Shown here piece by piece: positions 1,425-47,148 of a stretch of 64,000 nucleotides of DNA (position 1 is its first letter; each line of letters opens with the position of its first letter). The stretch is from Mobula hypostoma (lineage: Eukaryota). Made by a program: the position numbers and the translations under genes. The stretch spans positions 31,870,001 to 31,934,000 of the forward strand of contig NC_086097.1 in the NCBI RefSeq assembly GCF_963921235.1, written 5' to 3'. The notes under the pieces are model-generated. The model did not search any database and had not been told where the DNA came from. It worked only from the letters and a program-made list of their open reading frames with translations.

Positions 1425-1860
1425 CCCACATGCAAAACGCTGCAGGAACTCAGCAGGTCAGGTGCCATCTATGGAGGGGAATAAACAGTTGATGTTTCGG
1501 GCCAAGACCCTTCCTCAGGACTGGAAAGGAAGGGGGCAGGAGCCAGAATAAGAAGGTAGGGGGCGGGGGGGGGGAGAGTACAAGCAGTCAGGTGGCGTGA
1601 GACTGGGTGAGGGGAATGGTGGGTGGGGTAGTGGGAATGGAGTGAGAAGCTAGGAGGGGATAGGTGGCAGTAGTAATGGACTGAAACAAAAGGAATTTGA
1701 TAGGAGAGGAGAGTGGGCAATGCAAGAAAATAGAGGAGGAGGAGGAGAACTAGAGGGGCATGATGGGCAGGTGAGGAGGAGGGATGGGGGTTAGAGTAAC
1801 TAGAGCCTCTAACCTGATGGCATGAACATCCATTTCTCCAAATTCAAGTAACTTCTCTCT
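1425..1860 (-). mobile_element. Penelope-like 3' tail with decayed hammerhead motif
   Basis: G-rich tract plus cagttgatgtttcgggccaagacccttcctcaggactgg. A homologous copy lies at 20880-21245. Confidence 0.65.
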
Positions 1861-9450: not shown

Positions 9451-11849
9451 GAGAGATTAATTTACGAGATACTTTACCTCACCCGAGCCTGATGAGCCAA
9501 AGCCACTCTAAAGACTGGCCCACTCTAAGGAATGGCCGCTCCGCTTGCACTTGAATCCCTCTTACTGATTGGTCACTCCTCAAGTTAGAGAAACTGCCCT
9601 GAAACTAAAAACTTTAAAATCTCAATCACCGTCCTGATTAACAGGTAGCTCTTTTTGCTGATGTTGATTGTCCAACTCAGAGAAAATCCAAGCTTCTCTT
9701 AAATGTTGAAATCGAACCCACATTCACCACTTCAGCTGGCAACTTGACTCAGGAGCAGCTTCTCCCCCTCTGCCATTAAGTTTCCTAATAGTTCATGAAC
9801 CCATGAAAACTACCTCACTCTTCACATTGCACTACTTTTAAAATTCTTACTGTTATTTATAGTGTCTTTTATGCATTGCACAGCAAGCTTCATGAAACAC
9901 ACACAAAATGCAGGAGGAACTCAGCAGGCCAGGCAGCATCTATGGAAAAGAGTACAGTTGCCATTTCGGGCAGAGACCCTTCATCAGAATTAACAAACTT
10001 CATGATATATGTTAGTGATTAAGAAGCCTGATTCTGAAGACGAGCGTGTCAAATGCCTTCTTCACTACACTCTCCCATTTGGCAGAAGAGGTAAAAGCTT
10101 AAAAGTATGTACTACCAAGCTCAAGGTCAGCTTCTATCTCATCGTTATCAGACTAAGATGGATTCTTGACCTCACAAAAGGTTTAAAGATCTTAACCTTA
10201 CATCTTTTTGAAGGTTGGCTTTATTTGTCACATGTACACGAAAACATGCAGTGAAATGCATCATTTTGCATCAAGTTAAATCAGCAAGGGTAGTGTTTGG
10301 CAGCCCACAAGTTTCACTATGTTTCCAACGCCTCATTGCATGCCCTCTACTCATTAATCCTAATCTGTATGTCTTTCAATATTTGGAGGAAACCCACATG
10401 GTCACAGGGAGAACGTACAAACTCCTTACAGGCAGAGGCACTATAATAGAGTTATACTGGCACTCCGCTACTGTCTATGCATCGTCATGACCTTATTGTC
10501 TACCTGCTCTGCACTTTCTCTGTAACACTTCATTCTACATTCTCTTATTGTTTTTCCTTGTACTACCTCAATGCGAGGTTTAGTGCTGTACCAACCCATT
10601 TATGTCAGGAATCAGCCCAGAGACTCATACGCTGGTGGTCAGAGTAACAGTAGCGTCACACTTTAAAGTGCCAGAGTTCAATACCCAGAGCTGTCTGTAA
10701 GGGAGTTATACTTTCTCCCCACGACCGTGTGGATTTCCTCCGGGTGCTCCAGTTCCTCCCACATTCCAAAGACATATGGGTTAGTAAGTTGTGGCCATGC
10801 TGTGTTGGTGCGGGAAACATGATGACTCTTGTGAAGTGCCTCCAGCACATCCTGGGACTGTGTAGGTTGTTGACATAAATGATGCATTTCACCTATGTTT
10901 CAATGTACATGTGATACATAAAGCTAATCCTTGAATTTTTTTTTTACCTTCTAGTTTGCATTAATGGCTGAAATCTAATTTGCCTTTCTAAATGCTTGAT
11001 ATTTACTGTACATGTTGGTTTCATATTGTTTGCCTGAAGATTCTGATCTGTCAATGACGACCCTCAACAGTTGGTCTCTATTGAGATAACTTCAACATAG
11101 AACAGTACAACACTGGGCAGGCCATTTGGCCCACAATGTTGTGCGGATCCCAATTCCAATTTATACTATATGTCCTCTTCCTGTCTATTATCCATATCTT
11201 TCTACCCACTTCGTATTCATGCCTCAAATCTCAACCAAACCATCTGCTTCCACTACTGCCCCTGGAAACCCATTCTCCGTGTTTAAAAAAAATGCCCTTC
11301 ATGTCATCTTTAAGTTCCTCTCTAACTTAAAAAGCATGTCCTCTGGTGTTTGACATTTCTACCCGAGGAAAAAGAATCTCTTTCTATGCCTCTCATAATT
11401 TAATTTAATTCCCCTCAGCCTCGGATGTTCCAAGTTTGTCCAGCCTTATAGCTCGTACCCTCAAATCCTGGCAAACCTTTTCTGCACTGTCTCCAGGGCC
11501 TCCACATCCTTCCCGTAACAGAGTGACCAGAACTCCATACAGTACTTTAAATGTGGCGTGACTAAAGTTTTATACCAATGCAGTGTGACTTCCTTACCCT
11601 TAAGCTCAATACTGTGACCAGTGAAGGCAAGGCTGCTTTCCCATCTTATCCATTCATTTCGAGAGGACTAGAATGTAAAAGCAAGAATATAATGCTAAGG
11701 CTTGATGAGGCATTGGTCAGACTGCACTTGGAGTATTGTGAGCCATTTTGGACCCCTTATCTGAGAAAAGATGTGCTGGCATTGGAGAGGGTCCAGAGAA
11801 GGTTCGCATACATTAACCCTTTCATTCCTGGGATAATTTATAGTCAAGA

Positions 11850-12210: not shown

Positions 12211-15200
12211 GATGGCGAACACTAAGATGGCGCCGGTAACTGGCAACTCTGTGCGTGCTCTCCTGAGCAAACTGCCCTCCACACTATCCTATACCCGAGA
12301 AACCCTTCTAAACCTCTAATCTGCTACATCTAGCAAGATCAACAACATCCTGGTGAAGCTACTGACCCAGCTGGAGACCACAGTGCCAGAACTGCTTCTT
12401 AAACTCCAGGGTCAAAGATGCCGTGTTGGGAAACCAAGGAAGAAGTCAAAAGAGCAGGATCACCTCGTGTGAGGTCAGAGTGTGGGGTATCAAGGATTGA
12501 GATCTTGGCAACAGGCCTGTAGAGACCTGAGACAAACAACTATTGGTGGAAGACTGGCTCTTTAAACACTGCTGGGTAATGGGAAACGTGACTTATCTTT
12601 CTGACCTGCTGAGTTCCTCCAGCACTTTAAAGAGCTACGAGGTAATGTTGCAGCTTTATAAAACCTTGGTTAGACTACACTCAGAGTATGGTTGTCAGTT
12701 CTGGTCAACTTGTTATTGAAAGGATGTGGAAGCTTTCAAGAGGATGCAGAGGAGATTTGCCAGGATGCTGCCTGGATCAGTGAGCATATTTTATGAGGAT
12801 AGGTTGAACGAGCTAGGGCTTTTCTCTTTGGAGCAAAGGATGAGAGATGACTTAATAAAGAAGGTCAGGGGCATAGATAGAGTGGACAGTCAGAGATGTT
12901 TTCCAAGGGCAGAAATGGCTATTACAAGTGAAGGAGTGTATAGGGGGGTTGTCAGAGGTAAGTTCTTTACACAGAACTGGTGGGTGGGTGGAACGTCTTG
13001 CCAGGGCTGGTGGTAGAGGTAGATACATTGTTGGAATTTAAGAATCTCTTAGATAGATGATAGAAAATGGAGGCAGTGTAGTTGGGAAGAGTTAGATTGA
13101 TCTTAGAGTAAGTTTCAAAAGTTGGAACAATACTGTGGGCTGAAAGGCCAGTACTCTATGGTAATGTTCTTTGTGTGCGTTCCTCAATATTCCCAGCATC
13201 TGCGCAATCGCTTGCATTTACGATGTATCCCATGCTCTGATCTCTTGTGTCATCTTCTGCTGTGACTGTGTTGTCCATGATTGGTGGAACTGCATGCCAG
13301 GTGTGGGTGATAGTTGTGACGAAGAGGAGGAGGTCACAGTCAGCATCATGTTTGTTATAGAACCATAGAACCATAGAAACTACAGCACAGAAACAGGCCT
13401 TTTGGCCGGTCTTAGCTGTGCCGAACCATTTTCTGCCTAGTCCCACTGACCTGCACACGGACCATATCCCTCCATACACCTCCCATCTCTGACACTTTGT
13501 GAAAACTGTTGTTTTGCAGCACAGGTATAGTGCAATACGTTAAAAAATGATTATAATCTGCAATGAAATGTATTAAAAAAAGTAGTGCGAAAAGAGAGGA
13601 AAATAGGGAACAGGAGAAAATCTGTGGATGCTGGAAATCCAAGCAACAGACACAAAATGCTGGAGGAACTCAGCAGGCCAGGCAGCATCTATGGGAAAAA
13701 AGTACAGTTGACGTTTCAGGCTGAGACCATTCAGCAGGACTGGAGAAAAAAATGCTGAGTAGATTTAAAAGGCAGTGGGGGGTCGGGTAAGAGATGGTGT
13801 TCGTGGGTTCATGGTTCATTCAGTAATCTGAAGATGGAGGGCGAAAAGCTGTTCCTAAAACATTGAGTGTGCATCTCCAGACTCCCTGATGGTGGAAGTG
13901 AGAAGAGAGTATATCCTGGATGGAGACAATCCTTCATGATGCCACCTTTGGTGTCCTGGTTGGTGGTGAGGGTTGTGGCCAAGATGGAGCTGGCAGAGTA
14001 AACGACCCTCCCCAGCCTTTTCTGATTCTGTGCGTTGGAGCCTCCATACCAGACGATTCTGCAACCAGGCAGAATGCTCTCCACAAGGGTGAGACAGAGA
14101 GCAAGGTCATGCCAGAAGATGCCTCACCGCATTGAGTGTGTAACTGAGAATCACAACTGGCAGACCACGCCAAATCCCCGCTAAACACCGTCTGAGTCAT
14201 GCTGACTCCTGGCTCTCTGGCTGTTCAGTTGCCGTGGGCTGGGAGGGGACTTTCGATTAGGGTCAGGAATGATGCTGTTGGTAAGGGATGGATCAGGAGC
14301 CTGGGTCATCACCTCACCCAAGGTCCCTTGTTTCTAAGTGGTGAGATGTCCCAGAGCCCAGCAGAAAGCAGTCCATTACTTCACATATCATCTCAATCAA
14401 CCGTCCCCTACACTAGTCACCCACGGTTGGGTAACAGCAGGACCAAAACCCCTGGTTCCCCTGGATCAGATCTCGGCTTGTAACCCATAACCTCCGAACC
14501 CCTGGATTAGATCCCAGCCCTTAAACTACTCCCGAGGACCTGTTATTCTGTATATAAACAATTCCAAATCCTTGGATTAGATGTCAGCCTGTAACCCACT
14601 CCCAGCATTTGTACATAAAGCCTTGATTCCTTTGGGACTGTTCTGTGAAGAAAGGAAACAGGGTATGTTTAGAATGATGAAGGGTTTGGCAGGATGGGTG
14701 CTGAGAGAATGCATCCTCTTTAGAGAAGGACATAACCTGGGGCCATCTATACAAGGAATAACAAGATGCCTAGTGTGGAGTTATCAGACAAAACTACTTA
14801 TCCCAAGGACCAGAAGGAGTGTGGAACTTTCTCCAGCAGGGAGTGGCTGGAGTCAATGAGGAGCATTAAAGTGGGGTTTGGGCAAACCCGGGGGTAAAAG
14901 AGGAGAGAGGGTCCAGCTGACAGATTGAGAAGGGGGTCAGAGTTTTTATGGAGTGCTGCCACAAGGAAATAGCATCTATCATCAAGTACTCCCACCAGTC
15001 CAAGCCACACATTCTTCTCACTGCTGTCATCGGGAAGGAGATACAGGGACGCCCCTCGTCCCCGTCTCCACACTGGCCTGTCTGTCCTTGGCCTTCTCTA
15101 CTGCCACGGTGAGGCCAAACGTGAATCAGAGGAACAGCCCCTCATCCTCCACCTGGATAGTCGACACCCCATCGGCTTGGAGCCATTGAGCGCTACAGCC

Positions 15201-15736
15201 CAGAAACAGGCCCTTTGGCCCATGTAGTCCGTGCCAAATTGCTAATCTGTCTAGTCCCATCATCCCCTCCATACTCCTTCCATCCATCTACCTACCCATT
15301 CTCTTAAATTTTAAAATTGAACACGCATCCAGCACTTATGATGGCAGCCGTTCCCCACCCTCACTACCCTCTGAGTGAAGAAGCTCCCCATCATGTTCCC
15401 CTTAAACATTTCACCTTTCAGCCTTAACCCATGACCTCTAATTTCTAGTCTCATCCAACCTCAGTAGAAAAAGCCTGCTTGCATTTACCCTATCTATACC
15501 CCTCATAATTTTGTATACCTCTATCAAATCTCCCCTCAATCTTCTATGTTCCAGGGAATAAAGTCCGACCTAACCTATTCAATCTTTCCCTACAATTCAT
15601 GTCCTGAAGTCCCAGCAACATCTTGTGAAATCCCCTTCGTTGTCTCTGTATAACACGGAGACCAGAAATGTTCAGGGTGTTCCATGACCAATGACTGCCA
15701 CGTCTGAAATTCCTCCCGAGCTGTGATCTCTGTAAC

Positions 15737-15974
15737 ACACACAAAAAATGCTGGTGAACACAGCAGGCCAGGCAGCATCTATAGGAAGAGGTACAGTCGA
15801 CGTTTCGGGCCAAGAGACCCTTCGTCAGGACTAACTGAAAGAAGAGATAGTAAGGGTCTTGGCCCGAAACGTCGACTGTACCTCTTCCTATAGATGCTGC
15901 CTGGCCTTCTGCGTTCACCAGCATTTTTTGTGTGTGTGGCTTGAAATTCCAGCATCTGCAGATTTCCTCGTGTT
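15737..15974. mobile_element. Non-autonomous palindromic Penelope-like terminal element with 15-bp TSD
   Basis: Inverted arms (acacacaaaaaatgctggtgaac...gtcgacgtttcgggcc / ggcccgaaacgtcgac...gttcaccagcattttttgtgtgt). Direct repeat tgtgatctctgtaac at 15722-15736 and 15975-15989. Confidence 0.85.
15794..15833 (-). ncRNA. Minimal type-I hammerhead ribozyme motif (Penelope-associated), core intact
   Basis: Minus strand reads UAGUC-CUGACGA-A-GGGUC UCUU GGCCC-GAAAC-GUC|GACUG: stem I UAGUC/GACUG, stem II GGGUC/GGCCC, both core boxes, GUC triplet, and palindromic ACGU in place of stem III. Confidence 0.75.
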
Positions 15975-18889
15975 TGTGATCTCTGTAACTAGCTTGGAAT
16001 GAGGCAGATTGTCTGCTCTGCACGGGACGCAGTAGCAGCAGAGGATGCAGACCCTGTACCAACTTACCAATGCCTCTACTTCCTCAGGAGGCTAAGGAAA
16101 TGTCCCCCATTGACCCTTAACAATTTTTATCAACGCATCATAGAAACCATCCTCTCCAGATGGCCAGCGGCTTAGTACGGCAACTGCTCTGCCCGTGACG
16201 GCCAGAAACTGCAGAGAGTTGTGGACACAGCTCAGCACATCACAGGAACCAGCCATGGACTTTGGCTGCACTCCTCACTGCCTCAGTGAGGCAGCCAAGA
16301 TAATCAAGATTCAATTAGCTTTGTTGGTCACATGTACGTTAAAACATACAGTGAAATGCTTCATTTGTGTCAAATCAAATTAGTGCGGTTTGTCATGCCG
16401 TGGTGCGGTCATGTTCTGTTGGTGCCAGTAGCATGGCGACACTTGTGAGCTGCCCCCTACTAACCCTAGCCCGTACATCATTGGACCCGGAGCCCTCAGA
16501 GGAAACCCATGCAGTCATGGGGAGAACATACAAGCTCCTCACAGGCAGAGATGGGAAATAAGTTCTGATCGGTTATCGCTGGACCTATAAAGTGATTGTG
16601 CAAACCCCTAAGCTGCTGTACCGTGTATCAAACACCCCACCCAGCACCAGACATTCTCTCTTCTCCACCCTTCCATCGGGCAGTAGCCTGTACTACTAGG
16701 CTCAAGGACACCGAGCCCATTGTTATCAGACTATAAAATAATTCCCAGGCACAATCATCCTCTTATGAACTCACACCTTATTGTTTATCTGCACTGCACT
16801 TTTGTTGTAACTGTAGCACTCTATCTTATTCTTCCTCAATGCACTATGTAATGATTTAATCTGAATGAACAGTATGCAAGACAGGCTTTTCTCTGTACCT
16901 TGGTACAGGTGACAACAATAAACCAATACTAATAATCTACTTTAGCTTCTTGGGTTGGTTACTGGGCGACCACAGATGCAGATTCGATTGCAAAGGATGC
17001 TGCATTATATCTTTTAATTCACACTTATTGAAAGCATTTTATTGACTGAGCTGTAATAATCTAACCCATTAAGCAGCTGATGATCTCTAACAATGAGGAC
17101 TCTGTCAAAAGGAAGAGAGTTGACCGACTGGATGTTGGCCACAGGGCAGGGTGCTGATGGTTTACTGGTCTGGCTGTGGTTGTCCTTATCGCATTAGTAT
17201 CTTCCACACTGATTTCAGGTTCATTTATTTATCACATTGGACAGACCGCACTTGCACTATTGTGAGCAGTTTCCGATCCCTTATCTAAGAAAGGATGTGC
17301 TGGGATTGGGAAGGGTGCAGAGGAGGTTTGCAAGAATGATCCCAGGAATGAAAGGGTTAACATGAGGAGCGTTTGACGACTTGGGGCCTGTACTCACTGG
17401 AGTTCAGAAGAATGGAGGGGGGTCATCATTGAAACCTATCATATATTGAAAGGCCTAGATAGAGTGGACATGGAGAGGATATTTCCTATAGTGGGAGAGT
17501 CTCGGACCAGAGGGCACAGCTCAATAGTAGGACATCCCTTTAGAATAGAAATGAGGACTGGCATGGATGAGATGGGCTAATGGGCCTGTTTTTTCAAAAA
17601 CTGTGGAAATCTGACTTTTCTGATTAGTTTTGAAAGAACCAGGTTTAGCTTTATTTGTCACATGTACATTGATGGCAGCCTCTCCTGGGGTTGGTTGCCT
17701 GTCTGTGTGGGGTTGGGAGGAATGGGAAAGCGATTTGTTTTGTAGTTGTTGTGGTTGCTTGTGTTGTTCTGTTGAACATTGTTATGTTGCTTCTGGAATG
17801 TGTGGTGACTTGTGGGCTGCCCCAGGCACACCCTTGGACTGTGGTGGTTGTTTTTCACTGTATGCTTTGATGTACATGTGACAAATAAACTGAATCTGAG
17901 CCTATGCTCGTCTCCAGTTTCAGCGCTGGAGATTTTGGGACCTTTTCCTCTCTCCCACCCAACACATCTCGCTGTACCTCCTCCTAGCCCAACACCGATC
18001 ACAGATCTCTGCCCTCATCCTGTTCAACAGAGAATAGCACAGAAACTGGTCTTCTGGCCCACAATGTCTGTACTGAGCATGATACAGAATTATGCTGAAT
18101 TCCATCTGCCTGCACGTGATTCTGATGAAGGGTCTTGGCCTGAACCGTTGACTGTTTATTCACCTCCTGCTTGACCTGCTGTGTTCCTCCAGCATCTTGT
18201 TGCTTTAGATTTCCAGCATCTGCAGAATCTCGTGTTCTTGATTCATATCCCTCCATTGCCGGGCTGTCTGTGGTCTGTCTAACTGGGTGTTAAGCACGTC
18301 TGTCACATCTGCTTCCAGCCTTGGCCGTCCGTTCCAGACACCCCCCACTCTGAGTAAGAGTACTCATCCCACACATCTCCTTTAAACTTTCCCTTTCTCA
18401 TCTCAAACCTGTGCCCTCGAGTATTTGTCAATTGAGAGAAAAATTCTGACAATCTATCCAATCTATGCCTCCTATAATTTTATAAATTTCTATCTGATCT
18501 CCCCTCAGTCTCCGAAGCTCCAGAGAAAAGAACCCAGGTTTGTCCAGCCTCTCCTTGTAGCTCACGCTCTCTAATCCAGGCAGCATCCTGGTGAACCTCT
18601 TCTCCAAACCCTCCATGTGCTTCCTGTCATGGGCCAACCAGAACTGCACACAATGCTCCCAATGCAGATTAACGGAAGCTGAAACACGACTTCCTGGCTC
18701 AGTGCCCTGACCGATGAAGACAATTGGCTTTTTTCACCTCCCTGGTCTCTTCGTACATCCTAGAAATCCATCAGTTTACCACTGAGAGCCATGCTTCTAG
18801 CTGCCCGGACCCTAATTGCTGGGATTCCCAAGCCTCCGTCTTTCCTCCTTGGCACCACACCACTACAACAACACAAGTTCAATCCTCAC

Positions 18890-20150: not shown

Positions 20151-20879
20151 CACTGTGGATGCTGTCTGATGACTTTTCTCTGGAGCAATGGAGGCTGAGG
20201 GATAGCTTGATAGAAGTTAATAAAAGTGATAAACTTGATAAAATGCTGTCACGAGGGGATATAATTTCCAGGTGACTGGAGGAATGTACTGGGGAAATGT
20301 CAGAGGTAGGTTTTTTGACACAGAGGGTGTGGGTGTGTGGAACATACCACCAGGGTTGGGGGAAGAGACAGATACATTAGTGACATTTAACAAACTCTTA
20401 AGTGGAAGGAAAATGAAGGCCTTTGTGTGAGGGAAGGATTAGATTGATCTTGGGGTAGGTTAAAAGTCAGCACAGCATCGTGAGCCAATGGGCCTGTTCT
20501 GTGCTGTAGCGTTCTATGTTCTAAGCAGCGTCCAGACCAGGGACACTGATCTATCTCCCTCTGTCTCTCGATATGCCCCACCCCGCCCCTCCTGCTGGGA
20601 CCTGCTCGAGCCAGGGCATCCCAGAAGTGGAATCTGCCTCCTCCCTTGTGATCACCTGTCATTCCTGGCCTTGTGGTTGTGCCATGGCTCCCCTGTGCCT
20701 TGATTCCTCTCTGAAGGTGGCCGGTGAATGGACAGCCCAAGCAGAGTGCTCGGGGATGTGAGAAGTGCTGGGTCTCACTGCTGCGTGTCGGCAAAGTGAG
20801 TTCGGAAGCCCTGTGATCTCCTCCAGGCTGCAGCTCTGTGCTGGGAGCTGGAGGCCCAGTCACTCACTTTGACTTCAGT

Positions 20880-21245
20880 AACGCACATGAACTGCTGGAG
20901 GAACTCAGCAGGTCGGGCAGTATCTATGGAGAGGAATGAACAGTCAACATTTCAAGCCAAGATCCTTCTTAAGGACTGGAAAGGAAGGGGGCAGAAGCCA
21001 GAATAAGAAGGTGGGGGAGGAAGGGGAAGGAGTACAAGTTGGCAGGTGATAGGTGAGACCAGGTGAGGGAGAAGGTGGGCTTATGAAAAAAAGCTGGTGG
21101 GTGATAGGTGAGAGAAAGAGGAATCTGACAGGAAAGGACAGTGGACCATGGGAGAAAGGGGAACCAGAGAGAGGTGATGGGCAGATGAGGAGTAGAGAAA
21201 GGGTGAGAGGGGAACCAGAAAGCGGAATGGAAAAAGAGAAGGGCT
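20880..21245 (-). mobile_element. Penelope-like 3' tail (degenerate)
   Basis: Homologous to 1425-1860 (gaaggggg cagaagccagaataagaaggt...). Confidence 0.6.
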
Positions 21246-22170: not shown

Positions 22171-22716
22171 TTGGTGTAACACAGCAACGGGTTCTGAATG
22201 CTCCTCCAGATCATTTTCACTGACGTTTGGCAGTGGAACAATCGAAGTGATATCCAGAAGAAGGTTTAAAGACGGGTGTGGGAGGTGGGGGGGGGGGGGG
22301 GAATAGCAGGGAGATTACGGGAAGGCATTCCAGACCTCAGGATTCAGGGAACTGAAACAGTCGGCAGTGTTGCAGCTGTTTGGGAGGTGGAGAATGGAGG
22401 GGCGCTAGGATCTGGGAAGGTTACAGGGCCACAGGAGGCAACGGAGATAAGGAGGTGGGCAGGACTGGTGAAGGATCTGACCTCGAGGAATGACGTTTTA
22501 AGGTGTGAGCAGTCTGCAAGGTAGTGACAGGCAGTGAACAGATCAGAACATCATCGATACCAGCCTCCCGTCCACAGAGTCTGTCTACATTTCTCACTGC
22601 CTTGGTAAAGCAGGCAGTGTACTCAAAGACCCCACCCATCCTAGGCAGGTTGAGCTTTTCTCTCTGGAGCCAGTGACGATGTGAGGACTTGGTAGAATTG
22701 ATTAGAGGCATAAATC

Positions 22717-22924
22717 AAAGTTGCTGGTGAACGCAGCAGGCCAAGCAGCATCTATAGGAAGAGGCGCAGTCGACGTTTCAGGCCGAGACCCTTCGTCAGG
22801 ACGAAGGGTCTCGGCCTGAAACGTCGACTGTACCTCTTCCTAGAGATGCTGCCTGGCCTGCTGCGTTCACCAGCAACTTTGATGTGTGTTGCTTGAATTT
22901 CCAGCATCTGCAGAATTCCTGTTG
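22717..22924. mobile_element. Palindromic Penelope-like terminal element with 13-bp TSD, inserted in a CR1 3' end
   Basis: Near-perfect inverted repeat 22714-22883. Direct repeat agaggcataaatc at 22704-22716 and 22925-22937. Confidence 0.85.
22767..22802 (-). ncRNA. Second minimal hammerhead motif (core boxes intact, stem I cut to 3 bp)
   Basis: Minus strand reads GUC-CUGACGA-AGGGUCUCGGCCU-GAAAC-GUC|GACUG. Confidence 0.55.
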
Positions 22925-23771
22925 AGAGGCATAAATCGATGGGATAGCCAGAGGCTTTTACTCGGGGGGGGGGGGGGTATAATTTTAAGGCGATTGGAGG
23001 CAAGTTTAGGGGAGATGTCAGAGGTAGATTTTTTACACAGAGAGTGGTGGGTGCATGGATAACCCTGCCGGGGGTGGTGGTAGAGGCAGATACAATCGGA
23101 ACATTTAAGACACTCTTAGATAGGCACATGGGTGACAGAGAAATGGAGGGCAAGGTAGGAGGGAAGGGTTAGATTGAACTTGGAGTTGGATAATGGGTTA
23201 GCAGAACATCATGGGCTGAAGGGCCTGTACTATGCTTTATTACCTGGAGCATAGGAGAACAAGGACATATAAAACTATAGCCTTGCTTTAGATTCTGGAA
23301 AGGTTTCTGAAAAGCTGCTTAACTCCTTGTGTTGTATGTTTGGTCTTAAATCTCTCTGTCTCTCTCATACATACACTCTTTCAGCATCATTTAAGTCACT
23401 GTGGTGTGAGTCAGTCCATTGCAGTGCATCCACTTCAGCTCTTCCACAGCTATATCTGCTTTTCAGGAACTTACTTAGCTTCAAACACACAGACGCTTCT
23501 TTCACAAACAGCAGGCTGAATCCCCCACTGCTTCTTGGTCCCAGCTGAGTGTCACAAAAAGGGTACCTCAGCCTCCCCAGGTTGAATAAGGTCATGCACA
23601 GCCTTTCTCCATTAAGTAAATAACTCCTCAGGAGAACATCATACTTGTCTTGAGTGATCGCAGTTCTACTATTACTGTGAACAGGACCTCAGAACTAGGT
23701 GCTTAATGGAACGATGTCAGAGATTGTAGGGAAAACAGGTCAGTGAAGAAGGTTGCCTGAGGTTACAACAG

Positions 23772-26582: not shown

Positions 26583-28181
26583 CAAGCAGTGGCTGCAGTG
26601 TCTGGTTCTCAGTTACTCCCCCCAGTGGTGACTCTGGGCAGTGCGGCTACTCTGCGTGTACACTGGGAGTACAGTATGTCTCTATTCCAGGGTAACTAAT
26701 GGTGAATCATTTACCCAGACCTTCATGGAAATGGCCGCTGGTTTCAATTTGATAACTGCTTGACTGCGTGCCCACAGATAACTTGTTCTTTCTGAACCCC
26801 TGATCAATCAATTGCCTGTTCCAAGAGCCTCCATTCTGAGGATGTACTGGCTATCTTGTTCTACCCGCCCTGATGTTGGAAGGATGTGCTTAAACTGGAG
26901 AGAGTGCAGAGAAGATCCTCCTGAGTTGTACGGGAAGGTCGAAATGGTTCGGACTTTATTCTGTAGAACGTAGAAGACTGAGGGGAGATTTGATAGAGCT
27001 ATACAAAATTATGAGGGGTCTAGTTAGATAGATACTTTATTGATCCCAAAGGAAGTTACAGTGTCATAGTAGCATCACAAATGCACAGATATACAACTGT
27101 TAGAAGAGAAATTAGAAAGAATAAAAAAATGTTACCTGAAACGGTCTAACAGGAGTGGCGTCATCACTTCCCCGACTATAGGTGGACTCATTATAGGGTT
27201 AAATGGGGTAAATACAAGCAGGCTTTTCCACTGAGGTTGGGTGAGAGTACAACTAAAGCTCACAGAGGTCATAGATTATGAGTGGAAGGTGAAGTAGTTA
27301 AGGGGTACATGAAGAATTTCTTCATTCAGAGGATGGTGCAAGTGTGGAACGAGCAGCCAGCGGAAGTGGTAGATGTGGGTTTCAGTGCACCATTGAAGAG
27401 AAGTTTGGATAGGTACACGAATGGGAGGGATACGGAGGGCTGTGGTCCAGGTGCAGGTCGATGGGACTAGGCAGAATAACAGTTTGGCATGGACTAGATG
27501 GGCCGAAGGGCCTGTTTCTGTGCTATATAACTCTGAGGATGTTGTCAGGTCTGAGTTATAGGGAGAAGTTGTCCAGGTTAGATCTTTATTCCTTGGTACA
27601 TTGGAGAATAAGGGGCAAATTTATATAATTATGAGAGGCCTAGAAAGGGGGACAGTCGCAGTCTTTACTCCAGGCTAGACCAATGTCCAATTTATGGCAT
27701 AGGTTTAGAGTGAGAGGGGAAAGAATTAAAAGGAACATCTTTTCCACTCAGTATATGGAATGAGCTGCCAGAGGAAATGGTTGAGGCAGGTACAATAGTT
27801 TCATTTAAAAAGCACTTGGACAGGTACATGGAAGGTTGGGGCGAGATGGAATATGGGCCATATGCAGGGAATTAGAACCAGCTGTGTAGGCACGGTGGCT
27901 TGCATAGACTCATTGGGCTGAAGGGCCTGTGTCCTTGCTGTATTGCTCTAGGTCTCTACCAGGCCCACTCCCCCTGTTGGGAAGGCGAGGGGAGTGAGGG
28001 TGGGCTGCTGGTGATGTGAGAATTCTTCCAGATGTGGGTGAAGCATAAAACTCTGGAGGAACTTGACAGGTTAGTCAGCATCAGTGGAGGGCGGTGGACT
28101 GCTGACATTCTGGGCCAAGATCCTTTAAGTGTACGGGAAGATTAGAGGGGAAATGGTTGGTGGAAAGAGGGTTGAGAGACT

Positions 28182-33134: not shown

Positions 33135-34555
33135 TGGTGGTGCCATCCGTTAGTCTGGCGAGACCATGGATCTGCGCCTGGAAAGTCTTGCTTCAGTCTG
33201 TGCTAGAGCAGCGTCTGTTGTGGCTGTAGAGTCCCACACGGGAGTGACAGTCTCGGCTGCAGCGACTGCACTTGAAGGCGCTGTCCTCCAGTGTTGTCTT
33301 GGTGCTGTTTTCCAGGCAAGTGCGCTTTTCTTCAGCAGCAAACCTCAGCTTCTCTTCTCCTCTTTTTAGACCTCTGTGTAGTTCCAGCCTCCAGTGAGAG
33401 AGATCGCTTGCGATGTCCTCCCACCTCTCGACGTTCATGTTCAGTGACTTCACGTCTCTTTTGCAGACATCTTTGAAACGAAGATGGGGCCACCCTTGTG
33501 CTCTCTTGCCGGAGGCCAGTTCCCGATACAGCAAGTCTTTCGGGGTCCTCCCGTCTGACATGCGGTGTACGTGGCCCAGCCAGCGGAGACGGCGTTGTTG
33601 GAGCAGGGTGAAGAGGCTGGGTATCTGGGCGCAGGCCAGGACCTCATTGTTGGTGACTTGGTCAGTCCACGTGATGTCCAGGATGCGTCTCAGGCTGCGA
33701 AGGTGGAAGGCGCTGAGACGCCGCTCTTGTCTGTAGTAGAGGCTCCAGGTCTCGCTGCCGTAAAGCAGTGTGCTGAGGATGCAGGCCCTGTAGAGTGCAA
33801 CCTTGGTGTGCATCGTCAGCTCTCTGTTCTCCCAGACTCTCTTTGTTAGCCTGGCGAATGTTGAGGCTGCTCGTCCGATCCGTCTGTTGATCTCGGGGTC
33901 TGGGGAGAGACTGTCCGTGATGGTGGAGCCAAGGTATGTAAACTCATGAACTATCTCCAGCTCGTAGTTGTTGATGGTAATGGCAGGGGGGTGCTCAACG
34001 CCTTGGCCCAACACGTTGGTTTTCTTCAGGCTGATGGTCAAGCTGAAGTCCTGGCAGGCTCTTGAGAAGCTGTCCATGAGGCGTTGCAGTTGCTCTTCAG
34101 AGTGTGTTGCCAGTGCTGCGTCGTCTGCAAACATCATGTCCCTGATGAGTACTTCACGAACCTTGGTTTTCACCCTCAGCCGGGACAGACTGAACAGCCT
34201 CCCGTCCGATCTGGTGTGGGGGAAGACACCATCAGTTGATGTTCCAAAGGCGTGCTTCAGCATGACTGCGAAGAAGATGCCAAACAGGGTGGGGGCAAGC
34301 ACACAGCCCTGCCTCACACCGCTGCGGATGTTGAAGGTCTCCGAAGAAGAGCCGTCGAACTGAACGACACCCTTCATGTCTGTGTGGAATGACTGAACTA
34401 TCCTGAGGAACCTCGGGGGACAACCAATCCTGGTGAGGATTTTGAACAGGCTGTCTGTGCTCACAGGGTTGAAGGTCTTCGTGAGGTCAATGAAAGCGAC
34501 GTAGAGTGGTTGTCTTTGCTCTCTGCATTTCTCCTGTTGTAGCTGTCGGAGGGAG
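33135..34555 (-). mobile_element. 5'-truncated RTE-clade LINE; uninterrupted 423-aa RT and C-terminal ORF (34464-33193)
   Basis: GVRQGCVLAPTLFGIFF, FADDAAL, FTYLGS, LLYGSETW, RRLRWLGHVHRM, and a terminal C2HC-like motif CSRCSRDCHSRVGLYSHNRRC, all typical of RTE-clade elements. Confidence 0.92.
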
Positions 34556-34559
34556 ATTA

Positions 34560-35220
34560 TGGAAGAAGGGGAAAGGGGAGGAACACCAGGAGGAGGTGAT
34601 AGGCAGGTAAGGAGATAGGGTGAGAGAGGGAAACAGGAATGGGAATAGTGAAGAAAAGGTGGGAGGGGGGAAATTACAGGAAGTTCCAGAAATCGATGTT
34701 CATGCCATCAGGTTGGAGGCTGCCCAGACAGAATAAAAGATGTTGCCCTGAGTGTGGCCTCATCACAGCAGTAGAGGAGGCTATGGACAGACGTGTTGGA
34801 ATGGGAGGTGGAATTGAAAGGGGTGGCTACTGGGAGATCCCACTTTTTCTGGGTGCTTGGTGAAGTGGTCTGCCAGTCTGCATCTCACTGATACACAAGA
34901 GGCCACACCAGGAGCACCGGACACAGTATATGACCCCACCCTGAAATGTTGCCTCACCTGGAAGGCCTGTTTGGGGCCCTGAGTGGTAGTGAATGGAGGT
35001 GTAGGGGCAGGTGTAGCACTTGTTTTTGCTTGCAAGGATAAGAGACAGGAGGGAGATCAGTGGGGAGGGATGAGTGGATAAGGGAGTTGCGTAGGAAGTG
35101 ATCCCTGTGGAAAGCAGAGCGGGGGGGGGTGAAGGGAAAGATGTGCTTGGTGGTGGGATCCTATTTGAGATGGCAGAAGGTATGGAGAATTACGTGCTGG
35201 ATGTGGAGGCTAATGGGTGG
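34560..35220 (-). mobile_element. Penelope-like element fragment, GIY-YIG endonuclease region (frameshifted)
   Basis: Minus-strand peptide TTTQGPKQAFQVRQHF...RCRLADHF resembles the PLE motif GPKQSFQVRQHFTC..IYCIRC..LYIGET.RRLGDRF.EH. It is followed by the pyrimidine-rich tail typical of this family. Confidence 0.7.
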
Positions 35221-38200: not shown

Positions 38201-41200
38201 GTGGAAGTGAAATAGTGTTCACAAGTTCACCGGCTGTTTGGAAATCTGATTGCTGAACCTGAATTGTCGAGTGTGGGTCTTCGGGCTCCTGTACCTGGTG
38301 ATAGTAATGAGAAGAGGGCATATCCTGGGTGACAGGTGTCCTTAGTGATGAATGCTGTCTTCTTAGTGATGAAGCATTGCCTGTTGAAGATAGCCCCAAT
38401 GGTGGGGAGGCTCGTGCCCATGATGGAGCTGGCTGAGTTACAATTGCAACAACGTACCAAGTACACTCAAAAACTTTTACAGATGTACTGTGGAGAGCAT
38501 TCTGACTGGCTGCATCACCGCCTCTTGTGGGGTTGGGGGCTACTGCACAGGATCGAAGTAGGTTGCAGAAAGTTGTAAAATTGGACAGCGCCAACACGGG
38601 TACTAGCCTCCGTGATATCCAAGAAGTGGTATCTTCAATGAGCGGCGCCTCAGAAAGTGGGCGTCCATTATTAAGGACCCCCACCACCCAGGGCACGCCT
38701 TCTTCTCATTGTTACCGTCAGGTAGGAGGTACAGAAGCCTGAAGGCACACACTCAGCGATTCAGGAACAGCTTCTTCCCCTCAGCCACCTAATTCCTAAA
38801 TAGACATTGAACCCGTGAACAATATCTCACCACGTTATTATTTATTTATGTTTTTGCACTACTTATTTTAACTGAGCTATTTAATATATAGTACATATAT
38901 GCTTACTGTAACTCAGATTCTGTCTATATTTATCATGTATTAAACTGTACTGCTGCCACAAAGTTAACAAATTTCAAGACATATACCGATGATATTAAAC
39001 CTGATTCTGATTCTGAAATAAACGGAGGTTACAAGAACAGGTTAGAGTCTGGCAATGCTGTGGTAAGTCTCTCAGTTGCAGGCACCCTCTCCACGTTCAG
39101 CTTGTCAGGAGCGTGATGGGACACTCTCCACTTCTAATTATGTTAGTTAATTTTATTCAGAGATAACAGCATAGTAACAGGCCCCTCAGAATCAGGTTTG
39201 GTATCATTGGCCTATGCCATGGAATTTGTTGTTTTGTAGCATCTGTACATTACAATACATTATAATAAAAATATTACAAATGACAATAAGAAATATATAT
39301 GTAAAGTAGTGCAAAAAGAGAGCAAAAATAGGGGAGTGTACATGGGTTCAGAAATCCGTTGGCGGAGGGGAAGAAGCTGTTCCTAAAACATTGAATGTGT
39401 GTCTTTGGGCTCCTGCCCCCCTCCATAATGGTAACAATGAGAAGAGGGCATATCCTGGGTGGAGGGGCTCCTTAATGATGGACACTGTCTGTTTGAAGTA
39501 TTGCCTTTTGATGCTGGGTGGAGCTGGCTGAGCTTCCAACTTTCTGCAGCTTTCTCTGATCCTGTGCACTGGCCCCTCCATACCAGACGGTGATGCAACC
39601 AGTTAGAATGCTCTCCTCAATCTCCTAATGAGATAATAGTCACTGTCGTGGATTCTTTGTAATTGCATCAACGTGTTGAGCCCAGGACTGATCTTCAGAG
39701 ACGTTGACACCCAGGGACTTGAACCTGAATTGAATTGAATTGACTTTATTTCTTACATCCTTCACATACATGAGGAGTAAGAGTCTTTACATCTCCGTCT
39801 AAATGTGCAATGTGCAATCATAGTAATTTACAATGATTTATAATAAATAGAACAGTCAATGTAACATAGAAATGCATTCAAATCAGCGTGAGTTAATCAG
39901 TCTGTTGGCCTTGTGGAAGAAACTGACCCAGGGCCTGTTGGTTCTGGCTTTTATGCTGCGGTACTGTTTCCCGGATGGTTAGCAACTGGAACAGTTTGTG
40001 GTTAGGGTGACAGAGGTCTCAATGATCCTTCGGGCCCTTTTTTCACACCTGTCTTTGTAAATGTCCTGAGTCATGGGAAGTTCACAACTACAGATGCGCT
40101 GGGCTGTCCGCACCACTCTCAGCACAGTCCTGCAATTGAGAGAGGTACAGTTCCCATACCAGGCAGTGATGCAGCCAGTCAGGATGCTCTCAGTTGTGCC
40201 CCTGTAGAAAGTTCTTAGGATTTGGGTGCCCATACCAAACTTCCTCAACCGTCTGAGGTAAAAGAGGTGTGTTGTGCCTTCTTCACCACACAGCTGGTGT
40301 GTACAGACCACGTGAGGTCCTCGGGGATGTGGATGTTGAGGAGCTTAAAGCTGTCCACCCTTTCAACCCCAGATCTGTTGATGTCAACCTGTTCACCCTT
40401 ACCACTTCTGAACCCACAATGAGAACAGATGTGTGTTCCCATGACTTCCCACTCCTGAGTCCACAATCAATGATTCGGTCTTACTGACGTTGAATAAAAG
40501 GTTGATGTTGATGACACCACTCAAGCAGCTGATCTATCTCACACTTCTGTGCCTTCTCGTCACCATCTTTTTTCCTTCAGTCCCGCTGAAGGGTCTCAGC
40601 CCAAAATGTCGACTATACTCTTTACCATAGATGCTACCTGGCCTGCTGAATTCCTCGAGCATTTTGTGTGGGTTGCCTGCATTTTCAGCATCTGCAGGTG
40701 CTCTTGTTTGTGATTGACTTGCTGCCCTGCAAAGTCTCTTCCTGGGATGCCTACCCTGAAGAAGTTTAAATCCTCCCTTCGATGGGAGTTCAGTGAAACC
40801 CTCTCTCACTCTCGCCCTCTGTGATCTCTGTTGCCCTCTGACTCTTCGACCAAGTGCTCACACAGACCTCCTGGGAACAGGTCTTTGCCACCAGATTGTA
40901 CCACATGGCTTCCGGATCTGTATTCAGCCTTCTTGGTTCTGACCCTGTGAGGACCCCAGGTACTCACTATCAATTGACTTCTTCTCCCACTGCATTCTAC
41001 ACACCTTGATCTTTTTCTCTCCAGTCCTGATGAAGGGTCTCGGCCTAAACACGTCGACTATATTCTCTCCCATAGATGCTGCCTGGACCTGCTGAGTTCC
41101 TCCAGCATTCTGTGTGTGTTGACGAGGATCCTTGCCTGAATGACAGTTGGTCTAGGAATACTCGATGCTCAGAACCAGCCAGAACAAAGCAACCTGCTTA

Positions 41201-43550: not shown

Positions 43551-43782
43551 AAGCAACACACACAAAATGCCGGAGGAACTCAGCAGGTCAGGCAGCACCC
43601 ACGGAAATCAATAGATAGTTGTCGTTTTGGGCTGAGACCCCTCTTGAGTCCTAAAGAAGGATCTCGAGCAGAAATGTCGACTATCTACTCATTTCCATAG
43701 ATGTTACCTTGCTTGCTGAGTTCCTCCAGCATTTTCTGTGTCTTTCTTTGGATTTCCAACATCTGTGGAACCTCTTCTGTTT
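43551..43782. mobile_element. Older degenerate palindromic Penelope-like terminal element
   Basis: Same arm sequences, diverged. Flanking repeats atgatagatgct (43539-43550) and atgatggatgct (43783-43794). Confidence 0.7.
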
Positions 43783-46665: not shown

Positions 46666-46677
46666 ATGGTTCTTTGA
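46666..46677 (+). promoter_or_regulatory. Short uORF (ATG GTT CTT TGA) in the esr2 5' UTR part of the exon
   Basis: ATG at 46666 and stop at 46675-46677, downstream of the acceptor (46654) and upstream of the predicted start (46727). Confidence 0.6.
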
Positions 46678-46726
46678 GCGGCCGTCTCCCGGCAAGCTCC
46701 TGCTACACGGGGGCTGTGGGGCAGGG

Positions 46727-47148
46727 ATGGCTTTGTCCCCGAGGAAGGAGGGTCCACAGCTGCCCGAGCTGCCGGAATTCAGAGCTGAGGTGGCGGATAA
46801 CCACATGAAGAACTCGCCCCCAGTTTCCACGGCCCAGCCACAATACAGCGGCGTGCTGTCCGGTCTGAGCGAAAGTGGGACTGTGTGCATCCCAGCGCCT
46901 TACGTGGAGAACAGGCACGAATTCCCCACGCTGGCTTTCTACAGCCCATCCATCATGGGCTACAGCGTGCCCGGTGATGCCAGGACCGAGAGCACCTTCA
47001 CCAGGCAGGCTCTGAGCCCCTCGGTGTATTGGCCCTCGTCTGGGCACGTGTCTCCGATCACTCTCCACTGCCAGCAACCCGTCATGTACGCCGATCCCCC
47101 TCGGAGTCCTTGGAGCGAGCTGCGAACAGAACAACCACCACCCAACAG
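46727..47148 (+). CDS. esr2: Estrogen receptor beta, first coding exon (A/B domain). Exon spans 46654-47148; likely start ATG 46727, second in-frame Met at 46805
   Basis: Translation MKNSPP...TVCIPAPYVENRHEFPTLAFYSPSIMGYSVP...RQALSPSVYWPSSGHVSPITLHCQQPVMYADPPRSPWSELR..PPNR aligns by eye with the vertebrate ERbeta N-terminus (human [70 protein letters not shown]..VNR). Acceptor is polypyrimidine + cag at 46651-46653; donor AG|gtaaga at 47148/47149 (phase 2). Confidence 0.95.

What the first reader, a model, noticed from the sequence alone, without database searches (positions are those of the whole stretch)
15737..15974. Short TSD-flanked mobile element carrying a minimal hammerhead ribozyme
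Seen: the minus strand of 15794-15833 folds by eye into a type-I hammerhead (stem I UAGUC/GACUG, CUGACGA, stem II GGGUC/GGCCC, GAAAC, GUC cleavage triplet). Stem III is reduced to the palindrome ACGU. It sits in a ~240-bp non-coding element with a perfect 15-bp TSD. Known: Penelope-like elements carry such minimal hammerheads, which cleave as dimers through the palindromic stem III. Inference: this is a recently mobile, non-autonomous ribozyme-bearing family (retrozyme-like or PLE-terminus-derived) in a chondrichthyan.
Basis: partly seen in the sequence, partly recalled or inferred. Interest (0 to 1): 0.8.

Follow-up and report, generated by a model that had tools for sequence, protein, structure and literature searches.

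The report
Truncated head-to-head Penelope retroelement scar
This short hairpin-shaped repeat with a tiny hammerhead ribozyme motif is an ordinary cut-down, head-to-head insertion scar of a very abundant Penelope-like jumping gene in a ray genome, and it is likely dead on arrival rather than a new mobile ribozyme family.

Summary
Window 15737-15974 is a 238-bp insert between perfect 15-bp direct repeats. The minus strand of 15794-15833 carries every sequence feature of the minimal hammerhead of metazoan Penelope-like elements (PLEs).

The insert is not a self-propagating ribozyme family or a retrozyme. It is two 5'-truncated copies of the 3' end of one PLE, joined head to head, and only one arm carries the 37-nt PLE "tail". 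Longer genomic copies continue upstream for about 1.75 kb into a reverse transcriptase and GIY-YIG-like ORF. That ORF region has 240,925 first-look candidates in the 3.48-Gb genome.

This architecture is already described for PLEs: 5' truncation, an adjoining inverted copy, a one-sided tail and a target duplication. Contigs from two other organisms join the flanks exactly, with one repeat copy. The insertion is therefore real and lineage-specific.

The hammerhead boxes are far better conserved across PLE families than the sequence upstream. Stem covariation is not significant, and no cleavage was tested. In a whole-element transcript the motif is predicted to be buried in a long hairpin.

This scan has noted the same kind of element several times before, also in this genome. 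It is ordinary and of low interest.

The parts
15722..15736 (.). Left copy of the 15-bp target-site duplication TGTGATCTCTGTAAC.
   Evidence: 100% identical to 15975-89. The empty-site contigs of runs X19 and X20 hold only one copy.
15737..15856 (-). Tail-less, 5'-truncated copy of the PLE 3' end, sense on the minus strand. Its 5' end lies 23 nt upstream of hammerhead stem I. Its 3' end (15737) is the tail-less PLE end. Bases 15852-56 (AAGGG) are microhomology shared with the other arm.
   Evidence: The same upstream sequence continues into long PLE copies. BLAST against a 1.74-kb PLE copy gives 92.7% identity.
15794..15833 (-). Complete minimal type-I hammerhead motif: stem I of 5 bp, CUGACGA, unpaired A, stem II of 5 bp with loop UCUU, GAAA, palindromic ACGU in place of stem III, and C17. 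The predicted cut lies between 15799 and 15798.
   Evidence: The isolated 45-nt RNA is predicted to form stems I and II. The features match Cervera and De la Pena 2014.
15823..15851 (.). The 29-nt loop of the hairpin. It is the part of the minus-strand unit (CUGACGA box, stem I 5' strand and upstream bases) that has no partner on the other arm.
15852..15937 (+). Second copy of the PLE 3' end, sense on the plus strand, 5'-truncated inside hammerhead stem II. The CUGANGA box and the stem I 5' strand are missing.
   Evidence: 89.6% identity to the PLE copy.
15938..15974 (+). The 37-nt PLE 'tail', an optional 3' extension present on this arm only.
   Evidence: In unselected single copies the same stretch ends 13 copies and is absent from 16. 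The tail is described in Craig 2021 and Frangieh 2024.
15975..15989 (.). Right copy of the target-site duplication.

Best explanation
This 238-bp element is two 5'-truncated copies of the 3' end of an abundant Penelope-like retrotransposon joined head to head between 15-bp target duplications, and it was likely made in one insertion event and is likely unable to move again.

Shown:
- Each arm is the last roughly 100-120 nt of the element, that is the hammerhead plus the conserved 3' box.
- One arm stops at the tail-less 3' end and the other carries the 37-nt tail.
- The parent element continues upstream into a reverse transcriptase and GIY-YIG-like ORF and is 5'-truncated at many different points.
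- The site is empty in two other organisms.

Inferred mechanism of insertion. The PLE protein nicks both target strands about 15 bp apart. Reverse transcription starts inside the element's RNA, at one of two neighbouring start sites. The two arms then arise in one of two ways. Either both nicked strands prime cDNA that is joined at the AAGGG microhomology (my odds about 55%), or a single cDNA folds back on its own CCCTT and copies itself, and the endonuclease resolves the tail on one side (about 35%).

Inferred role of the hammerhead. It is a passenger inherited from the parent. In the parent it is likely kept by selection, for RNA processing or as part of the RNA that the protein recognises. 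In this copy a whole-element transcript would fold into a long duplex that buries it.
For: Family and parent:
- The 238-nt query has 2861 first-look candidates in the genome, of which 40 were scored. Full-length copies are 82-92% identical.
- In 29 loci found with the hammerhead plus its upstream 23 nt, the sequence upstream of the motif is shared for up to more than 1.6 kb. The 5' ends differ between copies. The 3' ends fall either at the tail-less site or after a tail of about 38 nt.
- Copies of about 1.75 kb carry their own 9-13 bp target duplications.

ORF:
- It holds RT motifs (RVT_1, E 6e-5) and a C-terminal CX4CxxC ... LYIGET ... EH region.
- That region aligns at 41% identity, E 2e-34, to residues 637-800 of the 806-aa relative P0005. 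Residues 708-751 of P0005 score 25.0 bits on Pfam GIY-YIG, above the cut-off of 22.6.
- The endonuclease region has 240,925 first-look candidates, of which 150 were scored.

Architecture:
- In an unselected sample (the window plus the flanks of other loci), 6 of 38 insertions are head-to-head pairs.
- Of 15 judged pairs not chosen with a tail-bearing query, 13 have the tail on one arm, 2 on neither and 0 on both. Three of the 16 pairs listed (one not judged) lie in one tandem array.
- Craig et al. 2021 describe exactly this: 5' truncation, an adjoining inverted 5'-truncated copy, and a 30-40-bp tail often at only one end.
- Frangieh et al. 2024 show that a PLE protein cuts and extends both strands and starts reverse transcription at two internal sites that bracket the tail.

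Made anew rather than copied as a hairpin:
- Palindrome centres differ among 30 copies.
- Only 7 genomic sites share this copy's junction at up to 1 mismatch. Five have the tail on the right arm, one on the left and one has none. They fall into two parental subfamilies, with both arms carrying the same subfamily marker.
- The two arms agree at the best subfamily marker in 24 of 26 copies, against 13 disagreements expected if the arms were independent.

Insertion: empty-site contigs in runs X19 and X20.

Hammerhead:
- Over 27 unselected units from several PLE families, the majority-letter fractions are CUGA.GA 0.91, GAAA 0.92, unpaired A 0.93 and the free position N7 0.48. The 45 nt upstream score 0.46 and the 12 nt downstream 0.68.
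- The whole-element RNA folds at -169.8 kcal/mol (z -21) as one hairpin.
Against: - No full-length parent with the N-terminal part of the ORF was recovered. This genome's own endonuclease fragments give no Pfam GIY-YIG hit even at E<=10, and RVT_1 stays below the curated cut-off (23.3 against 29.6). The RT plus GIY-YIG call therefore leans on alignment to relatives.
- Stem covariation of the hammerhead is not significant: 81.5% of cells are paired against 79.8% in shuffles, and 45 of 500 shuffles do as well.
- Only 5 of 29 unselected units that reach the motif keep all boxes, both stems and the palindrome.
- Nearest-neighbour energies favour inactive folds. The monomer minimum-energy fold pairs GACG of the core with CGUC at the cleavage site (-16.9 against -12.9 kcal/mol for the competent fold). 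The double-hammerhead dimer comes to -24.7 against -33.8 for two monomers.
- Three loci (L001, L002, L004) share one junction, which on its own could mean copying of a hairpin.
- One copy (L003) has arms of two different subfamilies. This fits two RNAs but not fold-back, while the strong agreement between arms elsewhere fits fold-back at least as well. The sub-mechanism is therefore open.
- The empty-site evidence is one low-depth contig per run, and the kind of run (DNA or RNA) is not on record.
Confidence: 0.82

Rival explanations
1. The hairpin is a non-autonomous, SINE-like or retrozyme-like family of its own. It would be transcribed as a unit, use its hammerhead (as a dimer) to process its RNA, and be mobilised in trans by PLE proteins.
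For: - There are thousands of similar short copies (2861 first-look candidates).
- L001, L002 and L004 share the same junction at different sites.
- The hairpin keeps the 3' box and tail that the PLE enzyme is thought to recognise.
- A 2026 preprint argues that animal retrozymes are PLE derivatives.
Against: - There is no tandem arrangement.
- The centre of the palindrome differs in most of 30 copies.
- The 7 same-junction copies differ in tail side and come from two parental subfamilies, with both arms switched together.
- Simple, non-hairpin truncated copies of the same parent are about five times as common (32 of 38 insertions).
- A unit-length transcript is predicted to be one long duplex with the ribozyme buried.
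- The left end always coincides with a parental reverse-transcription start site, not with a transcript start.
Confidence: 0.1
2. A fold-back DNA transposon or MITE with long terminal inverted repeats. It would be moved by a transposase, and the hammerhead-like motif would be there by chance.
For: 81-nt inverted repeats at 98% complementarity, and a flanking direct repeat.
Against: - The inverted repeat reaches only one end. The other end carries a 37-nt unpaired tail.
- Target duplications vary from about 9 to 16 bp between copies, as in target-primed reverse transcription.
- Each arm is colinear with the 3' end of a reverse-transcriptase-encoding element.
Confidence: 0.01
3. A host-adopted hairpin RNA gene (a microRNA or siRNA precursor, or a double-stranded RNA editing substrate) kept for its fold, upstream of the estrogen receptor beta gene.
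For: - A very stable hairpin, z -21.
- A sub-threshold Rfam hit to the microRNA hairpin model mir-5681, E 7e-11 but 52 bits against a gathering score of 88.
Against: - The site is empty in two other organisms, so the element is young and not conserved.
- The hit falls below the Rfam threshold and reflects hairpin shape only.
- Thousands of like hairpins decay at the neutral CpG pattern.
Confidence: 0.04

Closest known systems
Insertion unit of endonuclease-bearing Penelope-like elements (Penelope/Poseidon, Neptune, Nematis), as described by Evgen'ev and Arkhipova 2005 (cited only) and Craig, Yushenova, Rodriguez and Arkhipova 2021 (PMC8557442, passages read)
   Same: Strong 5' truncation, an inverted 5'-truncated copy joined to a direct one, a 30-40-bp tail at only one end, a target duplication, and a hammerhead near the 3' end. 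The parent ORF has RT followed by a CX4CxxC linker and a GIY-YIG-like domain.
   Different: This is a miniature case. Both arms are cut down to about 85-120 nt, so nothing but the 3' module is left. The clade (Neptune-like, judged by the linker motif) was not tested with a tree. The family itself belongs to a ray and is, as far as my searches show, not described by name.
Minimal hammerhead ribozymes of metazoan PLEs (Cervera and De la Pena 2014, PMC4209133; Lunse, Weinberg and Breaker 2016/17, seen only as a reference-list entry)
   Same: Type I topology, a 5-bp stem I, an unpaired base between A9 and G10.1, a G10.1-C11.1 pair, no real stem III but a palindromic ACGU, and a location in the PLE terminal region.
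   Different: Stem II is 4-5 bp rather than the 6-8 bp reported for several PLE families. No cleavage data exist for this motif. In this copy it lies inside a perfect hairpin.
Poseidon element of Anolis carolinensis (PAc) in vitro system (Frangieh et al. 2024, PMC11167929, main text read)
   Same: Two neighbouring internal reverse-transcription start sites that bracket the tail, cutting and extension of both target strands, and a hammerhead upstream of the start sites. Together these would explain the one-tailed head-to-head products.
   Different: In PAc the ORF starts inside the hammerhead. Here the ORF stop lies about 290 nt upstream of the hammerhead, and no ORF start overlaps it. Nothing was assayed here.
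Non-LTR retrozymes of animals (Cervera and De la Pena 2020, PMC7229834, search listing only; Li, Clavereau and Pollet 2026 preprint, abstract and part of Results read)
   Same: Type I hammerheads with a weak stem III, and an evolutionary link to PLE terminal regions.
   Different: Retrozymes are direct tandem repeats that give circular RNAs. This element is a single inverted pair without tandem copies.
L1 twin-priming inversions (Ostertag and Kazazian 2001; recalled, not read here)
   Same: Priming from both target strands gives an inverted 5' part joined to a direct 3' part, often at microhomology.
   Different: In twin priming the two parts come from different, adjoining stretches of one RNA. 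Here both arms copy the same 3'-terminal stretch.

Membership tests
Metazoan PLE minimal hammerhead (min-HHR) | Catalytic boxes CUGANGA and GAAA, with U16.1 and H17 (not G) at the cleavage site | tested here: met
   Minus strand 15828-22, 15806-03 and 15800-15799.
Metazoan PLE minimal hammerhead (min-HHR) | Type I topology with a short stem I (4-5 bp) | tested here: met
   UAGUC/GACUG, 5 pairs including one G-U. Predicted in the minimum-energy fold of the 45-nt RNA.
Metazoan PLE minimal hammerhead (min-HHR) | One unpaired nucleotide between A9 and G10.1, and a G10.1-C11.1 pair | tested here: met
   A at 15821; G15820 pairs with C15807. The unpaired A is kept in 0.93 of 27 units.
Metazoan PLE minimal hammerhead (min-HHR) | Stem III absent or 1 bp, with palindromic 15.2-16.2 | tested here: met
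   ACGU at 15803-15800.
Metazoan PLE minimal hammerhead (min-HHR) | Long stem II (6-8 bp in the families first described) | tested here: not met
   5 bp in this copy and 4 bp with a tetraloop in most copies. The paper reports this as a frequent trait, not as part of its descriptor.
Metazoan PLE minimal hammerhead (min-HHR) | Lies in the terminal repeat or 3' region of an element encoding RT and GIY-YIG | tested here: met
Metazoan PLE minimal hammerhead (min-HHR) | Compensatory changes in stems across copies | tested here: inconclusive
   81.5% of cells paired against 79.8% in shuffles, with 45 of 500 shuffles as high. Four pairs show a change on both sides.
Metazoan PLE minimal hammerhead (min-HHR) | Self-cleavage as a dimer or with protein help | not testable with these tools
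   Energy predictions only. No RNA run with raw reads was available.
Rfam hammerhead families | Score at or above the gathering threshold of a hammerhead covariance model | tested here: not met
   No hammerhead hit at gathering score or at E<=10. This is as expected for a motif without stem III.
EN+ Penelope-like element (parent) | A single ORF with a reverse transcriptase followed by a C-terminal GIY-YIG endonuclease | tested here: inconclusive
   In this genome's own copies RVT_1 gives E 6e-5, below the cut-off, and there is no direct GIY-YIG hit. The C-terminus aligns at E 2e-34 to a relative whose GIY-YIG hit passes the cut-off. 135 relatives carry the RVT_1 (+/- GIY-YIG) architecture. The N-terminal part of the ORF was not recovered.
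EN+ Penelope-like element (insertion unit) | Variable 5' truncation, an adjoining inverted 5'-truncated copy, a 30-40-bp tail on one side, and a target duplication | tested here: met
Neptune/Nematis-type PLE | [quoted passage not shown] | tested here: met
   CKWNKCYTC read in the ORF translations of L061 and L062. Clade placement by tree was not done.
Non-LTR retrozyme | Direct tandem repeats, each with a hammerhead, giving circular RNA | tested here: not met
   Tandem Repeats Finder gives 0 rows for 15000-16700. The only second copy is inverted and truncated. Circular RNA could not be tested.
Self-propagating SINE-like hairpin family | Copies share one internal structure and arm-specific substitutions inherited from a master | tested here: not met
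   Centres vary. Same-junction copies differ in tail side and in subfamily. Subfamily markers switch on both arms together.
MITE / fold-back DNA transposon | Terminal inverted repeats at both ends and a fixed-length target duplication | tested here: not met
   One end is a 37-nt unpaired tail. Target duplications range from about 9 to 16 bp.

The most novel reading that the evidence does not exclude
The mini-hairpins are natural fossils of a two-ended integration reaction. A dimeric PLE particle nicks both target strands and primes on both. One protomer starts at the tail site and the other at the tail-less site, which gives the near-absolute rule of a tail on exactly one arm. The two cDNAs are then joined at microhomology near the hammerhead. 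A genome-wide census of junctions, tails and arm chimeras in this ray would then give an in-vivo read-out of the PLE transposition mechanism and of what the hammerhead edge does to the template.
Probability: 0.3. Interest if true: 0.45.

Novelty: new member of a known kind. Interest (0 to 1): 0.2.

Why it matters
On its own it matters little. It is one of very many decayed insertion products of a known class of retroelement, and this scan has met the same thing repeatedly.

It has some use in three respects:
- It shows that a PLE family (Neptune-like by its linker motif) with a standard minimal hammerhead has been hugely successful in a ray genome and was active after the split from at least two related organisms.
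- The very abundant short hairpins, with their one-sided tails and their arms copied from the same template, are a large natural data set. The two models of PLE integration, priming on both strands versus fold-back, could be told apart with it.
- Annotators should mask these hairpins before calling microRNA-like or ribozyme genes.

Tried and rejected
- Rfam hammerhead models found nothing. This is not evidence against a stem-III-less motif.
- Pfam GIY-YIG on this genome's own endonuclease fragments found nothing, even at E<=10.
- RNA evidence: no RNA holder is listed. All 24 runs are kept as contigs, and their kind is guessed or unknown. Contigs show no molecule ends (table 6: none), so nothing can be said about expression or cleavage.
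- Empty-site test of the second hairpin (window 22450-23150): the tool could not be reached in five tries. Not done.
- Full-length parent: three 9.5-kb stretches upstream of long copies gave only copies of about 1.75 kb, each with its own target duplication. No N-terminal ORF part and no 5' terminal repeat with a second direct hammerhead were found.
- The Lunse et al. paper is not held. It was seen only as a reference and through a review's summary.
- My first 'bystander' count of intact hammerheads wrongly included the 3' ends of targeted copies. It was replaced.
- An automatic tail call for two pairs was unreliable and was re-read by eye. My earlier reading that L030 and L056 had tails on both arms was wrong.
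- The search of earlier findings by place found nothing near the finding.

Full report
**1. The observation**

On the minus strand of 15794-15833 the order is:
- stem I 5' strand UAGUC
- CUGACGA
- GGGUC, loop UCUU, GGCCC
- GAAA
- C, G, U, C
- stem I 3' strand GACUG

The four bases ACGU stand where stem III should be. The predicted cut falls between 15799 and 15798.

The 35-nt core occurs once in the window at up to three mismatches, and none of 100 shuffles gave a match. The 15-bp direct repeat TGTGATCTCTGTAAC at 15722-36 and 15975-89 is perfect.

The arms are 81 nt and 98% complementary. Complementarity resumes at CCCTT/AAGGG around a 29-nt loop, and a 37-nt stretch at the right end (15938-74) has no partner.

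Rfam gives no hammerhead hit at gathering score or at E<=10. That is expected for a motif without stem III. The only notable match is a sub-threshold hairpin hit to a microRNA model.

**2. It is the tail end of a long retroelement, twice**

The 238-nt insert has 2861 first-look candidates in the window's own 3.48-Gb genome. Forty were scored, and full-length copies are 82-92% identical.

An alignment of 30 loci shows a palindrome of two units placed head to head. In most copies both strands carry a whole hammerhead. In the window's copy the plus-strand unit is cut off inside stem II, and only the minus-strand unit is whole. The centre of the palindrome differs from copy to copy.

A search with the hammerhead plus the 23 nt upstream of it (623 candidates, 40 scored) brought 29 further loci. 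In these:
- The upstream sequence continues, shared between loci, for up to more than 1.6 kb.
- The 5' ends lie at many different points.
- The 3' ends lie either at the point where the window's left arm ends, or about 38 nt further on, after the same tail that the window's right arm carries.

Ten-kilobase stretches around three long copies showed about 1.7 kb of direct sequence, preceded by an inverted piece of the 3' end.

The direct sequence encodes RT motifs (Pfam RVT_1, E 6e-5, below the curated cut-off). After a CX4CxxC motif it encodes a region reading ...LYIGET...EH... that ends about 290 nt before the hammerhead.

Pfam does not call GIY-YIG on these decayed fragments. The region does align at 41% identity (E 2e-34) to the C-terminus of an 806-aa relative. 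That relative's residues 708-751 pass the GIY-YIG cut-off. The 135 relatives found share the RVT_1 architecture, with or without GIY-YIG.

The endonuclease region alone has 240,925 first-look candidates in the genome. The parent is therefore an endonuclease-bearing Penelope-like element (PLE) of very high copy number. No copy with the N-terminal part of the ORF was recovered.

**3. The architecture is the known PLE insertion unit**

Craig et al. 2021 (passages) describe PLE insertions as follows:
- strongly 5'-truncated
[quoted passage not shown] Frangieh et al. 2024 (main text) report for a lizard PLE that:
- the protein cuts and extends both target strands
- reverse transcription starts at two adjacent internal sites of the RNA
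- the tail is the stretch between those two sites

The window's element is a miniature of this unit, with one tail-less arm, one tailed arm and a 15-bp target duplication.

In an unselected sample (the window plus the flanks of loci fetched for other reasons) I counted 38 insertions of the 3' module from several PLE families. Six of them are head-to-head pairs. Three of the six lie in this window.

Of 15 judged pairs that were not chosen with a tail-bearing query, 13 have the tail on one arm, 2 on neither and none on both. Three of the 16 pairs listed (one of them not judged) lie in one tandem array. Among single copies, 13 have the tail and 16 lack it.

**4. A real, lineage-specific insertion**

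Contigs of two runs from other, coded organisms (X19 record 15 and X20 record 22) align to 15588/15572-15721 and go straight on at 15975, with no letters between. They skip the element and one repeat copy. Their flanks differ from the window by about 4-6%. Run X1 bridges both borders of the filled site, the right one with no differences.

Each case rests on one low-depth contig, and the kind of run is not on record. The exact match to the predicted empty site is still hard to explain otherwise.

The two arms differ at 2 of 81 positions. Among 28 hairpins, arm-to-arm identity within a copy averages 0.895, against 0.863-0.875 between copies.

**5. Is the hairpin a family of its own?**

Probably not.
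- Only seven genomic sites share this copy's junction at up to one mismatch.
- Among these seven, the tail is on the right arm in five, on the left in one and absent in one.
- They fall into two groups that differ at two linked parental markers, and in each copy both arms carry the same state.
- Across 28 hairpins the arms agree at the best subfamily marker in 24 of 26 cases, where 13 disagreements are expected if arms were drawn independently. At CpG sites disagreement is close to that expectation, as for decay after insertion.

This fits arms made afresh at each event from one kind of parental RNA, or from one another, with a junction that recurs at the AAGGG microhomology. It does not fit a hairpin master whose arms are inherited separately.

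One copy (L003) has arms of two subfamilies. That fits two RNA templates.

I cannot decide between priming on both strands and fold-back of one cDNA. My odds are about 55 to 35.

**6. The hammerhead**

Across 27 unselected units from several PLE families, whose upstream sequences are unrelated, the majority-letter fractions are:

| Region | Fraction |
|---|---|
| CUGA.GA box | 0.91 |
| GAAA | 0.92 |
| Unpaired A | 0.93 |
| Free position N7 | 0.48 |
| 45 nt upstream | 0.46 |
| 12 nt after stem I | 0.68 |
| 3' box | 0.83 |

Against this, covariation in the stems is not significant. Only 5 of 29 unselected units that reach the motif keep all its features.

Predicted energies favour inactive folds. 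In the monomer, part of the core pairs with the cleavage site. The double-hammerhead dimer is about 9 kcal/mol less stable than two monomers. A transcript of the whole element is one long hairpin of -169.8 kcal/mol.

This agrees with published reports of very low in-vitro activity and of protein-assisted cleavage. No cleavage was tested here, and no usable RNA data were available.

**7. Context**

The element sits among other decayed repeats, about 31 kb upstream of an exon encoding the N-terminal domain of estrogen receptor beta (Pfam ERbeta_N, E 3e-35). The best matches of that exon are rays and then sharks, so the host is a cartilaginous fish.

**8. Earlier notes of this scan**

A word search showed that the scan has reported the same kind of object at least six times. 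Two reports concern other pieces of this genome, and all reached the same verdict. I reached my reading before seeing them.

One note claims that many short copies begin at the 5' edge of the hammerhead. In my small sample, 6 of 23 unselected single units begin, by my reading, within a few bases of that edge. That agrees only in part.

**9. Verdict**

This is a new member of a known kind and of low interest.

**Papers and what I read of each**
- PMC4209133: parts 1-2 of 4.
- PMC11167929: outline and the whole main text.
- Preprint 10.64898/2026.07.22.740005: abstract and part 1 of the Results.
- PMC8557442 and PMC6765202: passages found by term search.
- PMC7229834: search listing only.
- Lunse et al.: reference entry only.
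- Ostertag and Kazazian 2001, Evgen'ev and Arkhipova 2005, and De la Pena and Flores 2001: recalled, or seen only as citations.

Noticed in passing
window 22716-22924: A second head-to-head PLE hairpin of the same family, with a 13-bp target duplication AGAGGCATAAATC and the tail on the right arm only. The palindrome runs almost to its centre, and neither strand keeps a full stem I.
   Followed up: partly
window 43552-43790: A third head-to-head hairpin, from a different and more decayed PLE family. Again the tail is on one arm only.
   Followed up: partly
window 1428-1522, 9894-9991, 13609-13741, 18121-18236, 20878-20977, 28044-28127, 40579-40716, 41023-41121: Single truncated 3' modules of at least three PLE families. 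They share the hammerhead and the 3' box, but their upstream sequences are unrelated.
   Followed up: partly
window 46574-47152 (+): An open frame with the estrogen receptor beta N-terminal domain (Pfam ERbeta_N, E 3e-35). It is 95% identical to Mobula birostris estrogen receptor 2a. The finding lies about 31 kb upstream of it.
   Followed up: partly
window 33193-34707 (-) and 52217-53311 (+): Long open frames with strong RVT_1 hits (75.8 and 54.2 bits). The second also carries an ALKBH8_N match. These are other retroelements, not PLE by this evidence.
   Followed up: no
L061, L062, L076, L077, L078 (G000 loci): Several independent PLE copies of about 1.75 kb, each with its own target duplication, have 5' truncation points within about 100 nt of one another inside the RT region. 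This suggests a preferred stop or a shortened master.
   Followed up: partly
L080 about 885-1543: Three copies of a hairpin element in tandem, spaced about 254 nt apart. This looks like a local tandem duplication of a whole hairpin.
   Followed up: no
unselected single units in the window and locus flanks: By my reading, 6 of 23 single units start within a few bases of the 5' edge of hammerhead stem I, with unrelated sequence directly upstream. Many hairpin centres also lie 0-12 nt upstream of that edge. This hints at a discrete template or cDNA end there.
   Followed up: partly
window 15794-15833 (-): In the variant with N7 = C, GACG of the catalytic box is complementary to CGUC at the cleavage site. 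The predicted monomer fold is therefore an inactive rod.
   Followed up: partly
window 15400-15620 and 16050-16270: The flanks of the element are themselves high-copy repeats, with contig word depth in the thousands to millions. The right flank holds a decayed open frame (its repeat class is recalled, not tested). The PLE landed in old repeat debris.
   Followed up: no
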